Source of the DNA: the human T2T-CHM13v2.0 reference genome, Homo sapiens
Length of the DNA stretch: 64,000 nt
Direction: 5' to 3' (one strand)
Assembly (NCBI RefSeq): GCF_009914755.1
Contig: NC_060935.1
Shown: positions 35,126 through 41,500 of the stretch, piece by piece
How positions within the stretch are numbered: the first letter of the stretch is position 1
Layout: every line of letters starts with the position of its first letter
The notes under the pieces: generated by a model
What the model was told of the DNA's origin: nothing
Database searches by the model: none
Seen by the model: only the letters and a program-made list of their open reading frames with translations
Translations under genes and position numbers: made by a program

Positions 35126-35729
35126 AGCCTTGTTAGGAAGATGGGCAGAACGAGGAAGTCCTTAGAAAAAAAGTTTTTCCTTTAGATTATTGTTAAAATG
35201 ATTTTTAAAAACAAGTATTTTTTAGTTTTTAATATTTTATGCTCTAACCATTTTATAAAACAAGGTTTATTGGAACATCTGGCTAAAGAGACAGGAGACT
35301 GAATTCTAGTCATGGCTCTGCCAGTTCAATTCAAGATATATTTACTAAACATTACTGTGCTTAAGGCATTGGGTTAGACATTATACTATTCAAATTATCT
35401 GCCATTACATAAATAATATAAACTCTGGCCAGGGGCAGTGGCTCATGCCTATAATCCCAACACTTTGGGAAGGGGAGGCAGGAGGATCACTTGAGCCCAG
35501 GAGTTTGAGCCTAGACTGGACAATATGGCAAGATCCCATCTACAAAAAAAAAAAAAGAAAAAAAATTAGCTGGGTGTGATGCCGTGCGCCTGTGGTCCCA
35601 GCTACTCGGGAGGCTGACGCAGGAGGTCTGCTTAAACCCAGGAGTTCGAGGCTGCAGTGAGCAGTGTCCAGTGTTCATGCTGCTGCACTCCAGCCCGGGC
35701 AACAGAGTGAGAGCCTGTCAGAAACGGAA

Positions 35730-35793
35730 TGGGAGGGGAAGGGAGGGGAGGGGAGGGGAGGGGAGGGGAGGGGGAAAAGAAAAGAAAGAGAAA
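35730..35793 (+). repeat. (GGGGA)n / purine-only tract at an Alu tail
   Basis: gggaggggaagggaggggaggggaggggaggggaggggagggggaaaagaaaagaaagag. Confidence 0.9.
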
Positions 35794-35910
35794 AATATAC
35801 ACTCTGCCCTTAGTTTACACATTAGTCAAATTAGGTTAATAACTAGTAAAGTACAGAGTGCTGAATTCATACTAAGAGTGGGTTTGAAGAAAAATTACTT
35901 AAAATGATTT

Positions 35911-36941
35911 TGCCTTTTCACCCCCTAGCACTGCTGGGCCGGCAGGTCTCTGTCGAGCCGCAAACGCGGGTCTCTGTTCCGCAGAATGGGGTTTATTAAA
36001 GTTGTTAAGAATAAAGCCTACTTTAAGAGATACCAAGTGAAATTTAGAAGACGACGAGAGGGTAAAACTGGTTACTATCCTCAGAAATGCTTGGTGATAC
36101 AGGATAAAAATAAATACAACACACCCAAATATAAGATGATAGTTCGTGTAACAAACAGAGATATCATTTGTCAGACTGCTTATGCCCGTATAGAGGGGGA
36201 TATAGTCTGCGCAGCATATGCACACAAACTGCCAAAATGTGGTGTGAAGGTTGGCCTGACAAATTATGCTGCAACTTATTGTACTGGCCTGCTGCTGGCC
36301 CGCAGGCTTCCCAATAGGTTTGGCATGGACAAGATCTATGAAGGCCAAGTGGAGGAGACTGGCAATGAATACAATGTGGAAAGCATTGATGGTCAGCCAG
36401 GTGCCTTTACCTGCTATTTGGATACAGGTCTTGCCAGAACTACCACTGGCAATAAAGTTTTTGGCACCCTGAAGGGAGCTGTGGATGGAGGCTTGTCTGT
36501 CCCTCACAGTACCAAACGATTCCCTAGTTATGATTCTGAAAGCAAGGAATTTAATGCAGAAGTACACCAGAAGCACATCATGGGCCAGAATGTTGCAGAT
36601 TACATGCACTACTTAACAGAAGAAGATGAAGATGCTTACAAGAACCAGTTCTCTCAATGCATAAAGAAGAGCGTAACTCCAGACATGATGGAAGAGATGT
36701 ATAAGAAAGCTCATGCTGCTATATGAGAGAATCCAGTCTATGAAAAGAGGCCCAAGAAAGAAGTTAAAAAGAATAGGTGGAACTGTCCCAAAATGTCCCT
36801 TGCTCAGAAGAAACATCAGGTAGCTTAAAAGAAGGCAAGCTCCCTCAGAGCTCAGGAGCAGGCTGCTGAGAGCTAAACCAAACAATTTTCTATAAAGATT
36901 TTTCAGATAAAGACGATAAACATATGGACAGAAAAAAAAAA
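35911..36941 (+). pseudogene. RPL5P30: Processed pseudogene of ribosomal protein L5 (uL18), antisense within IFT46 intron 2 (probably RPL5P30)
   Basis: Intronless [28 protein letters not shown]... with a pyrimidine 5' leader, premature TGA at 36724-36726 (Arg CGA in the parent), a second premature TAA near 36826, original stop 36874-36876, A-tail 36932-36941 and an imperfect TSD aaaa(t/a)gattt. The pseudogene number is from memory. Confidence 0.92.
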
Positions 36942-40356: not shown

Positions 40357-40752
40357 CTAAGCAAAGGGAGACATAATTCATAGCTCCTATCATGAGACAT
40401 AAAGCACTCTGCCAGGAGGTATATTCCAAACCAGCATTGGCTCCTCTTCCTTACTCAAGAAACCAGTTTTTCACAAAACCATCACCCCATCCAAACTTTC
40501 CTTCAGGCTTCCTGGCCCTCGGTCAAGCAGTTAAGTCATTCTGTTGCAGCCCTTATTTAGGAACTGCTGGCAGGCTGGCTGAGGAACCAGGGAATCGTGG
40601 AGGGAAAGAGAGCCAACTTCTGCAGCTTCCCAAAGCTGTACGACCACGCGCAAGGGCAGAACACTATTTGTATGTAGATGGCCAAGGCTGTTGAGGTTTC
40701 TCAGGGAAGGCTGTAGAGGTTCTAGAAAGAGTTCTGTCTCTGGAGTCACCTC

Positions 40753-40815
40753 TGGGGTGGGGTGGGGTGGGGTGGGGTGGGGTGGGGTGGGCTGAGGCGG
40801 GGTAGGGTGGGAGGG
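40753..40815 (+). repeat. (TGGGG)7 microsatellite plus five further G-tracts
   Basis: tggggtggggtggggtggggtggggtggggtggggtgggctgaggcggggtagggtgggaggg. Confidence 0.95.
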
Positions 40816-40969
40816 TCCCCGAAGAGAGGGGAAACTCCAGTCTCTCAGTCCCATCCGATAATCCCAAAATCATCACCTCCACTTTCACCCTTATCTTGCA
40901 GATAGGATCCCACCTAAGTTTCTTGGGGGAATAAAGGAAGCAGGACGGTTGGTGGTGAGGTGACGAAGG

Positions 40970-41500
40970 AACAGTTACCACGGAGATTGGAAGAGGTAAC
41001 CGGGAATGGGGTAAAGGGGAGTCCTCTTAAGCCTCTCTAGAAAGACAGTTCCCTTTTTGCTGGGATGAGTACTAATTACCTGTAGCCCTTCTGAATCCGT
41101 CTCCTCTATAATGGAAAGAACCCCAGCCTAGGGCTGGGGTCTCACTCCAGTCTCAAAGCCAGGCCACTTTAGGATTCCACGCCAAGCAACCAGCCTGTTG
41201 TCAGTCGCTAGGCAAAAAGATAAATTTTAAAATTCGCGAGAGTTGCTTCCACTCTCGTGAGACCTCCTGCGCGTTAAGCCTCACCCGCGAAGGCTCTCCA
41301 CGCAGGAAGAAGATCAAGGAGTCACGGATAAAGCCTCTCTGGGCGGCCAAGTCGCCTGTTTGTCTATGGTTTCAGTAAATACGTCTGTTGCGGCATCTAG
41401 CGGCTATGGGTGGCAACGCGGCTGATAAATTTCGGGCTGGTGTAGAGTTAGCCCTTCAATCTGGAAACAAGGTGTGCGTTTGTTCCCCTAGGACAACAAT
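40970..41500 (-). promoter_or_regulatory. IFT46: IFT46 promoter with RFX X-box-like and CGCG-element-like motifs
   Basis: GTCGCTAGGCAAA 41204-41216 and GTTACCACGGAGAT 40974-40987 (X-box-like; RFX control of IFT genes is established); TTCGCGAGA 41233-41241 and TCTCGTGAGA 41253-41262. Confidence 0.65.
41080..41205 (-). other. IFT46: IFT46 exon 1 (TSS approximate)
   Basis: Donor CAG|gtaatt at 41080/41079, directly downstream of a CpG-containing region with X-box-like motifs. Confidence 0.8.

What the first reader, a model, noticed from the sequence alone, without database searches (positions are those of the whole stretch)
35126..41140. IFT46 '5' UTR' is a hidden 54-codon N-terminal extension starting at a non-AUG (AUA) codon
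Seen: splicing exon 1 (donor 41080), exon 2 (40356-40260) and exon 3 (from 35160) gives one stop-free frame continuous with the annotated AUG: (I/M)[59 protein letters not shown]. There is no in-frame AUG. Six codons after an in-frame TAG (41130-41128) lies ATA (41109-41107) in optimal Kozak context (attATAG: A-3, G+4); a second near-cognate ACG (gagACGG) follows three codons later. From memory, the VVENQ.YDE.L...(D/E)SEE block resembles the N-terminus of algal and fish IFT46, where it is ordinary coding sequence, and I recall this gene (C11orf60) in comparative surveys of non-AUG extensions, so it may not be wholly new. Inference: the native protein includes a 358-aa form; 304-aa constructs lack a conserved motif, and variants in exons 1-2 may be misclassified as UTR.
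Basis: partly seen in the sequence, partly recalled or inferred. Interest (0 to 1): 0.9.

Follow-up and report, generated by a model that had tools for sequence, protein, structure and literature searches.

The report
IFT46 non-AUG extension carries dynein-adaptor motif
The "5' UTR" of human IFT46 is really conserved coding sequence that starts at an AUA codon, a prediction already published in 2011, and it holds the very motif for the dynein-arm adaptor ODA16/DAW1 that cilia researchers report as missing from mammals.

Summary
On the minus strand, exon 1 (from AUA 41109-41107), exon 2 (40356-40260) and exon 3 (35160-35126) form a 54-codon stop-free frame into the annotated AUG (35125). An in-frame TAG (41130-41128) bounds it and it holds no in-frame AUG.

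It is coding. Annotated IFT46 proteins of many mammals, a coelacanth and a caecilian carry the exon-2 peptide inside their CDS. Three marsupials and the platypus start with Met exactly at the human AUA position.

It is not new as a prediction. IFT46 is one of the non-AUG extensions of Ivanov et al. 2011. Fedorova et al. 2022 list it as still unannotated in GENCODE v35, with its start at transcript nucleotide 112 (0-based), which is this AUA.

The link to cilia biology was not found in print. Exon 2 encodes NQTYDE, the Nxxx(D/E)E ODA16-binding motif of Chlamydomonas IFT46. Papers from 2025-2026 say mammals lack this motif and that human DAW1 does not bind IFT46. The one positive mammalian result, a 2008 two-hybrid screen, used mouse clones whose 5' UTR was translated in frame.

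Translation of the extension and its binding to DAW1 are inferred, not shown.

The parts
41128..41130 (-). In-frame TAG that closes the frame upstream, so no AUG further upstream in this transcript can feed the extension
41119..41141 (-). 10-bp RNA hairpin (mRNA nt 81-103, -18.4 kcal/mol) that ends 9 nt 5' of the AUA and holds the TAG in its loop and stem; role unknown
   Evidence: 0 of 1000 shuffles are as stable
41107..41109 (-). AUA, the proposed start codon (A at -3, G at +4). It is homologous to the AUG start of marsupial and platypus IFT46
   Evidence: start position 112 (0-based) in ENST00000264021.8 in Fedorova 2022 Supplementary Data
41098..41100 (-). ACG, an alternative near-cognate start three codons downstream (G at -3, G at +4)
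41080..41109 (-). Exon-1 part of the extension, 10 codons (IEETDSEGLQ)
   Evidence: 8-10 of 9-10 aligned residues are identical in the 10 records whose row covers this segment
40260..40356 (-). Exon 2, 32 codons plus 1 nt, annotated as UTR. It is the conserved core of the extension
40324..40341 (-). Codons for NQTYDE, which fits the Nxxx(D/E)E ODA16-binding motif of IFT46
   Evidence: motif definition from PMC11879689; register with Chlamydomonas IFT46
40317..40331 (-). Out-of-frame mini-uORF AUG-AUG-AGC-GUC-UAG lying between the AUA and the annotated AUG
35126..35160 (-). Exon-3 part of the extension (12 codons counting the G carried over from exon 2); less conserved, with one in-frame 9-residue deletion in Apodemus
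35123..35125 (-). Annotated AUG (start of the 304-aa form). It is an internal Met in species that have the upstream AUG

Best explanation
The annotated 5' leader of the main human IFT46 mRNA is the ancestral N-terminal coding region of IFT46.

Shown: the frame is open, and its protein sequence is conserved from platypus to human. Its exon-2 core is conserved across eukaryotes. The human AUA sits where marsupials and the platypus have the initiator AUG.

Inferred, step 1: in eutherians that AUG became AUA. A minority of scanning ribosomes still start there with Met-tRNAi, or at the ACG three codons on, and make a 358-aa proteoform. The rest pass on, meet the small out-of-frame AUGAUG uORF, and reach the annotated AUG by leaky scanning or reinitiation to make the 304-aa form.

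Inferred, step 2: only the long form carries the NxxxDE motif (NQTYDE). This motif is the homologue of Chlamydomonas IFT46 residues 29-34, which dock the outer-dynein-arm adaptor ODA16. The long form would therefore be the IFT46 species that binds mammalian DAW1/ODA16.
For: Frame and start context.

Conservation in the database search: 30 of 30 candidates contain the exon-2 peptide. Of these, 21 are named IFT46 and 24 carry PF12317.

Conservation in the alignment: I aligned 25 of the 30 records. I left out 5 short unnamed ORFs that read exon 2 out of genomic DNA. Identity to human exon 2 is 24-32 of 32 residues over all 25 records, and 27-31 of 32 in the 15 records that grouped as eutherian (11 named, 4 unnamed). 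The only length change is an in-frame 9-residue deletion, and there are no stops.

Residue at the AUA position: Met in 4 records (bilby, monito del monte, wombat, platypus), Ile in 4 eutherian-type records (P0019, P0022, P0024, P0028), Ala in Myotis.

Coding boundary: upstream of that residue, the human and rodent-type or ruminant-type translations stop agreeing (AGVLSI versus VLGWGSFQ/H). This fits a coding boundary at the AUA.

Deep homology: the motif profile finds exon 2 alone in the window at E = 5.9e-8. The same profile hits 84 of 150 IFT46 representatives and 0 of 150 reversed controls. PDB 8bd7_D residues 23-56 align to the same block.

Prior prediction.

Function: CrIFT46 residues 23-44 bind ODA16 with Kd about 1 uM, and D33K abolishes binding. 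The human ODA16 cleft is conserved, and human ODA16 binds a human IFT46 chimera carrying the algal motif (passages of PMC11879689). In the 2008 two-hybrid screen with human ODA16, all three mouse IFT46 clones carried the 5' UTR translated in frame (PMC2568026).
Against: No direct evidence of translation was found. In Fedorova 2022, IFT46 occurs only in the sheet of unannotated Ivanov candidates. It does not occur in the other 8 readable supplementary files, which should hold their PhyloCSF and Ribo-seq sets. One large text file and the PDFs could not be read. IFT46 is also absent from the addendum's supplement and from the supplementary file of the 2024 NAR paper on peptides from 5' UTRs.

Neither GENCODE v35 nor RefSeq RS_2025_08 annotates the extension.

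AUA is among the weaker near-cognate start codons, by my recollection of reporter studies. A stable hairpin lies just upstream of it.

Myotis davidii has Ala at the AUA position, so the AUA is not universal in eutherians.

I had only proteins from other species. I could not measure codon-level selection (dN/dS, PhyloCSF) or identify the Ile codons.

Human has Arg where Chlamydomonas has E35. Binding to DAW1 is untested.
Confidence: 0.75

Rival explanations
1. Relic. The eutherian ancestor lost the AUG and the region has not been translated since. It looks conserved only because it decays slowly or because it serves as an RNA or DNA element in the leader.
For: There are no footprint or peptide records in the supplements I could read. 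AUA is a weak start codon. The leader holds a strong hairpin and lies next to a promoter, so some nucleotide-level constraint is plausible.
Against: The 15 records that grouped as eutherian keep 27-31 of 32 exon-2 residues. They show only conservative changes (V/I), no stop, and one in-frame deletion. The most constrained stretch is exactly the protein motif shared with fish, invertebrate and algal IFT46. The human ODA16 cleft that fits this motif is still conserved.
Confidence: 0.07
2. The extension is translated, but mainly from an AUG in an alternative transcript with another first exon spliced to exon 2. It is not translated from a non-AUG codon in exon 1.
For: On the minus strand, an ATG at 47834 (cttaccATGg) opens a frame to a GT donor at 47661 that is in phase with exon 2. 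One unnamed database ORF (P0005) has exactly this join. RefSeq lists other IFT46 transcripts that start upstream (exon 47881-52187).
Against: The 5' end of P0005 is antisense to ARCN1 exons 2 and 1, joined at ARCN1's own splice junction, so it looks like a chimeric assembly. The annotated exon 47881-52187 has no in-frame ATG in its last 19 open codons. The desman model uses this region in a different frame, so it is not conserved as coding. The exon-1 decapeptide is conserved, and it begins with Met in marsupials and the platypus.
Confidence: 0.08
3. The extension is translated from exon 1, but the working start is the ACG at 41100-41098 (or both codons) rather than the AUA.
For: The ACG has G at -3 and G at +4. 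Myotis lacks the Ile but keeps the following EET. A low-quality capuchin model starts with Met at the ACG position.
Against: The ancestral AUG aligns with the AUA, not the ACG. Ivanov 2011 and Fedorova 2022 place the start at the AUA. The capuchin record is diverged throughout and may be a retrocopy.
Confidence: 0.25

Closest known systems
[quoted passage not shown] 2011, NAR; AUA cases named in a 2021 review: TEAD3, SP3, IFT46, VANGL2, FAM217B)
   Same: It has an open frame upstream of the annotated AUG, closed by an in-frame stop and conserved as protein, with a near-cognate codon in good Kozak context. IFT46 itself is on that list.
   Different: Nothing differs in kind; this is that very case. 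Added here: the start is AUG in marsupials and the platypus, which dates the change to the eutherian stem, and a specific function is proposed for the extension.
ODA16-binding motif Nxxx(D/E)E of Chlamydomonas IFT46, residues 23-44 (Wang et al. 2025, JBC, PMC11879689)
   Same: It has the same position near the N-terminus, the same register and the same pattern (N, then three residues, then D-E). An acidic, Ser-rich strand follows. The Asp that matches D33 is present.
   Different: That paper states the motif is absent from human, mouse and cow IFT46. Here it is present but sits upstream of the annotated AUG. Human has Arg at the position of Chlamydomonas E35. Binding of the human motif has not been measured.
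FNDC5 (irisin precursor) ATA start
   Same: An ancestral ATG start became ATA while the upstream coding sequence was kept.
   Different: The FNDC5 change is human-specific and expression from the ATA is reported as about 1%. The IFT46 change is shared by several eutherian orders, and a downstream in-frame AUG still yields a functional short protein.

Membership tests
Conserved non-AUG N-terminal extension (Ivanov-type) | In-frame open region upstream of the annotated AUG, with no in-frame AUG and closed by an upstream stop | tested here: met
   60 open codons after the TAG, 54 from the AUA, and no in-frame ATG
Conserved non-AUG N-terminal extension (Ivanov-type) | Protein-coding conservation of the extension across species, with the frame kept | tested here: met
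   at protein level only. dN/dS and PhyloCSF could not be run because no other vertebrate DNA was available
Conserved non-AUG N-terminal extension (Ivanov-type) | Near-cognate codon in good context at the 5' edge of conservation | tested here: met
   for context; conservation begins at the AUA residue; it is Met in 4 marsupial or platypus records and Ile in 4 eutherian-type records. The Ile codons in other species were not seen
Conserved non-AUG N-terminal extension (Ivanov-type) | Experimental evidence of initiation (footprints, N-terminal peptide, western blot) | not testable with these tools
   Look-ups in three papers' supplements found none; some files were unreadable
IFT46 ODA16-binding motif | Pattern Nxxx(D/E)E near the N-terminus of an IFT46 protein | tested here: met
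   (NQTYDE); the pattern definition comes
IFT46 ODA16-binding motif | Homology in register with Chlamydomonas IFT46 residues 23-44 | tested here: met
IFT46 ODA16-binding motif | Direct binding to ODA16/DAW1 that depends on the central Asp | not testable with these tools
The only indirect evidence is that the two-hybrid clones contained the translated 5' UTR

The most novel reading that the evidence does not exclude
In eutherian mammals the IFT46-DAW1 link for importing outer dynein arms was not lost. It was moved onto a minor, AUA-initiated long proteoform of IFT46. The abundant AUG-initiated 304-aa form builds cilia but cannot bind DAW1.

The ratio of the two forms is set by start-codon stringency, the leader hairpin and the mini-uORF. 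Cells could therefore tune dynein-arm import separately from ciliogenesis. Variants in 'UTR' exons 1-2 could cause motile-cilia or laterality disease while primary cilia stay normal.
Probability: 0.4. Interest if true: 0.85.

Novelty: already known. Interest (0 to 1): 0.62.

Why it matters
Cilia papers up to September 2026 state that human DAW1/ODA16 does not bind IFT46 and that mammals lack the binding motif. They read this as a species-specific transport mechanism. Those experiments and alignments used the annotated 304-aa protein.

If the conserved extension is translated, the motif is present, and three results are reconciled:
- the 2008 two-hybrid positive, obtained with clones that included the 5' UTR;
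- the later negative pull-downs;
- the conserved cleft on human ODA16.

This turns an open question into a one-construct experiment. It also bears on annotation, because MANE and RefSeq still call exons 1-2 UTR. It bears on how variants there are read in primary ciliary dyskinesia or heterotaxy, and on every tagged or recombinant mammalian IFT46 construct.

Tried and rejected
- **Short peptide against PDB.** A phmmer search of the 32-aa exon-2 peptide against PDB sequences gave nothing at E <= 10. The query was too short. The full coelacanth protein then showed the match to 8bd7_D.
- **Minimum query length.** I resent the same exon with 10 intron read-through residues to reach the 40-aa minimum.
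- **Ivanov 2011.** Table 1 is not held as text and the supplement could not be opened. The listing of IFT46 therefore rests on a 2021 review passage and on Fedorova 2022 Supplementary Data 3.
- **Wang et al. 2020** (human ODA16 structure) is not held. I know it only through citing papers.
- **Searches for the link.** No paper joining the extension to ODA16 came up for: IFT46 + non-AUG (2 papers), + N-terminal extension (5), + PhyloCSF (0), + ribosome profiling (1), + start codon (30; 25 listed), + untranslated region (28; 25 listed), + DAW1 from 2020 (12). Only listings were seen, apart from the papers named in the full report.
- **Complex prediction.** I located DAW1 in the window's genome with a primer printed in PMC2568026. 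I found exon 2 by splice-site scoring and confirmed it against PDB 5nnz_B. A first search with a WD40 exon was swamped by bacterial WD40 proteins. The second search gave 20 DAW1 records, none of them a clean 415-aa form.
- **Promoter and terminator scan.** This bacterial-type scan is irrelevant to a human gene, except that it flagged the hairpin.
- **Alternative-exon reading.** I considered it and ranked it low.
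Full report
**1. Observation**

I read the three exons on the minus strand and translated them.
- Exon 1 ends at 41080, followed by a gt donor.
- Exon 2 is 40356-40260, behind a ttag acceptor.
- Exon 3 starts at 35160.

A script spliced them by coordinates. The annotated ATG (35125) is preceded by 60 open in-frame codons back to the TAG at 41130-41128. 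No in-frame ATG lies in between.

The near-cognate codons closest to the TAG are:

| Codon | Position | Context |
|---|---|---|
| ATT | 41112 | poor |
| ATA | 41109 | A at -3, G at +4; 54 codons before the ATG |
| ACG | 41100 | G at -3, G at +4 |

Two features were not mentioned. Two out-of-frame ATGs lie in exon 2 (40331 and 40328; MMSV*, stop at 40319-40317). A 10-bp hairpin of -18.4 kcal/mol ends 9 nt 5' of the ATA (0 of 1000 shuffles are as stable).

**2. Is it coding?**

A stop-free run of 60 codons is not rare by chance, so the test is conservation.

*Database search.* I searched the exon-2 peptide against the large protein database, padded with 10 intron residues to meet the 40-aa minimum. 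All 30 candidates matched.
- 21 are named IFT46, from primates, bats, carnivores, ruminants, a camel, a rodent, a tree shrew, a desman, four marsupials, the platypus, a coelacanth and a caecilian.
- 24 of the 30 carry the IFT46 Pfam domain PF12317.
- In all the named proteins the peptide lies inside the annotated CDS.

*Alignment.* I aligned 25 of the 30 to the human spliced translation. I left out 5 short unnamed ORFs that simply read exon 2 out of genomic DNA. Identity to human exon 2 is 24-32 of 32 residues. It is 27-31 of 32 in the 15 records that grouped as eutherian (11 named, 4 unnamed). The first 22 residues are nearly invariant there. The exon-3 part is looser (5-12 of 12, over the 23 records whose row covers it). 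It shows one length change, an in-frame 9-residue deletion in Apodemus.

*Annotation artefacts.* The annotated N-termini of the eutherian models do not agree with each other (MQ-, MG-, MSW-, ML-, or long unrelated leaders). This is what gene predictors produce when they must find an ATG in front of a conserved exon.

**3. The start**

Four annotated proteins begin MEETDSEGLQ: bilby (flagged low quality), monito del monte, wombat (a cluster of 81 sequences) and platypus. This is the human exon-1 decapeptide with Met in place of the AUA-encoded Ile.

Four eutherian-type records have Ile at that position: a partial yak protein and three unnamed transcript-like ORFs. Myotis davidii has Ala.

Upstream of that residue, the human translation and the rodent-type or ruminant-type translations no longer agree. 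Protein-level conservation therefore begins at the AUA.

I infer that the ancestral mammalian start was an AUG here, and that it became AUA on the eutherian stem. I could not see the codons of the other species, so ATA versus ATT or ATC is open there. The ACG three codons downstream may share the work.

**4. Already in print**

A 2021 review (PMC8284618, passages read) states that Ivanov et al. 2011 listed six human genes with an ATA start. IFT46 is among them, with the ATA present in other mammals.

I read the abstract, section 12 and passages of Ivanov 2011 (PMC3105428). Its Table 1 is not held as text and its supplement could not be opened.

Fedorova et al. 2022 (PMC9789052) gives direct confirmation. 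I read section 8, passages, and part 1 of 2 of supplementary file 6. The sheet 'Ivanov et al un_28' lists IFT46 among 28 predicted extensions not annotated in GENCODE v35. The extension starts at position 112 of the MANE transcript. With exon 1 starting at 41221, zero-based position 112 is the AUA at 41109.

Evidence on the other side:
- IFT46 occurs in none of the other 8 readable supplementary files of that paper. One large text file and the PDFs were not readable.
- It does not occur in the addendum's supplement.
- It does not occur in the supplement of the 2024 NAR paper on peptides from 5' UTRs.

So I found no footprint or peptide evidence. RefSeq RS_2025_08, as given with the finding, still starts the CDS at 35125.

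**5. What the extension is**

*Family-wide motif.* I ran the coelacanth IFT46 against 1.84 billion representatives and took the best 150 (2376 hits at E <= 0.001). A loose regular expression for the block matched 52 of the 150, against 2 of 150 reversed sequences.

*Independent profile.* Of the 52 regex matches, one (P0099, at residue 373) was dropped as spurious, leaving 51 motif windows. I dropped 7 more that were 45% or more identical to the human peptide, so the profile is independent of close relatives. I built a profile from the other 44.
- Against all 3257 six-frame pieces of the window, it finds only the exon-2 piece (E = 5.9e-8; next best 2.4).
- Against the 150 representatives, it finds 84 (40 of them not used in training) and 0 of 150 reversed controls.
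- The block usually lies within the first few dozen residues (median start at residue 38).

One caveat applies. The regular expression was written with the human peptide and the published motif in view. The reversed-sequence and whole-window controls answer that only in part.

*Match to Chlamydomonas.* The PDB chain 8bd7_D is named only 'Intraflagellar transport protein 46'. Its residues match the numbering given for CrIFT46. It aligns over residues 23-56 to the same block.

**6. The link to ODA16/DAW1**

Wang et al. 2025 (PMC11879689, abstract and passages read) report the following.
- CrIFT46 residues 23-44 bind ODA16 with Kd about 1 uM.
- The motif 29-Nxxx(D/E)E-34 is essential, and D33K abolishes binding.
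- The motif is conserved in trypanosome, zebrafish, Tetrahymena, Xenopus and C. elegans.
[quoted passage not shown] They connect this to the reported failure of human ODA16 to bind human IFT46.
- The cleft of human ODA16 is conserved, and human ODA16 binds a human IFT46 chimera that carries the algal residues 22-44.

Human exon 2 encodes NQTYDE, in the same register as the algal NQPHDE. Placing side by side by eye, 8 of 22 positions of the 23-44 peptide are identical and several more are conservative. In alignment A3 the D-E pair and the N-Q pair are invariant or nearly so across 26 sequences.

The motif is therefore not missing from mammals. It lies upstream of the annotated AUG.

Later papers still state that the human interaction is lacking and that the transport mechanism is species-specific (J Cell Sci Oct 2025, PMC12633730, and Eur J Hum Genet Sept 2026, PMC13743782; passages read).

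An older result fits this reading. Ahmed et al. 2008 (PMC2568026, passages) found IFT46 with human ODA16 as bait in a mouse testis two-hybrid library. [quoted passage not shown] Those 'linkers' would have included the extension. That this explains the positive result is my inference.

I found no paper that makes the connection.

**7. Mechanism**

Shown:
- The frame and the start-codon context.
- Conservation as protein.
- Homology of the motif.

Inferred:
- Some scanning ribosomes start at the AUA (or ACG) with initiator Met and make a 358-aa protein (54 + 304 residues).
- Most scan past. Some translate the four-codon uORF and reinitiate about 100 nt downstream at the annotated AUG.
- Only the long form binds DAW1.

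The role of the hairpin is unknown.

**8. Rivals**

- **Untranslated relic.** This is hard to square with near-invariance of exactly the protein motif across eutherian orders.
- **AUG in an alternative transcript.** A minus-strand ATG at 47834 runs in frame to a donor at 47661 that is in phase with exon 2. One unnamed ORF (P0005) shows that join. However, its 5' end is antisense to spliced ARCN1 exons, which points to a chimeric assembly. The RefSeq upstream exon 47881-52187 has no in-frame ATG at its end.
- **ACG instead of AUA.** This remains open.

**9. What I could not do**

I had no DNA from other vertebrates, so I could not test codon-level selection.

To test binding in silico, I found DAW1 in the window's own genome with a primer. 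I confirmed exon 2 against PDB 5nnz_B, fetched DAW1 proteins and built alignments.

**10. Verdict**

As a predicted non-AUG extension it is already known. Its value lies in the cross-field link, which makes the question of how mammalian DAW1 couples to IFT directly testable.

Noticed in passing
window 41119-41141 (-): A perfect 10-bp hairpin (-18.4 kcal/mol; 0 of 1000 shuffles are as stable) lies in IFT46 exon 1 and ends 9 nt 5' of the AUA. The in-frame TAG sits in its loop and stem. The rodent-type and ruminant-type translations suggest the palindrome is kept. Its role in scanning or start choice is unknown.
   Followed up: partly
window 40317-40331 (-): A tandem out-of-frame AUGAUG opens a 4-codon uORF (MMSV*) inside exon 2, between the AUA and the annotated AUG. 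Ribosomes must skip it or reinitiate after it to make the 304-aa form.
   Followed up: partly
window 47661-47834 (-): A minus-strand ATG in strong context shares a CCATGG palindrome with the ARCN1 start codon (47833-47835). It opens a 58-codon frame to a GT donor that is in phase with IFT46 exon 2. The join is seen only in one unnamed ORF (P0005), whose 5' end is antisense to ARCN1 exons 2 and 1, so it is probably a chimeric assembly.
   Followed up: partly
window 33034-33186 (-): The alternative 51-codon exon translates without a stop. It is homologous to the insert in the annotated IFT46 of marsupials, platypus, tree shrew and desman, so this alternative exon is old and conserved.
   Followed up: partly
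proteins P0004, P0013, P0018, P0025, P0026, P0007, P0012, P0021, P0023, P0027: Automatic gene models of many eutherians give IFT46 unrelated, invented N-termini (2-4 residues or long leaders) in front of exon 2. This is a systematic annotation artefact caused by the missing AUG.
   Followed up: no
protein P0029 (capuchin, flagged low quality): This model starts with Met at the position of the human ACG codon and is diverged along its whole length. It may be a retrocopy that kept the 5' leader.
   Followed up: no
G000:C2:228354020 (loci L001, L007-L012): The DAW1 gene was located in the same genome. None of the 20 database DAW1 records retrieved was a clean 415-aa form; all were isoforms or models with missing WD40 blades or altered ends.
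   Followed up: partly
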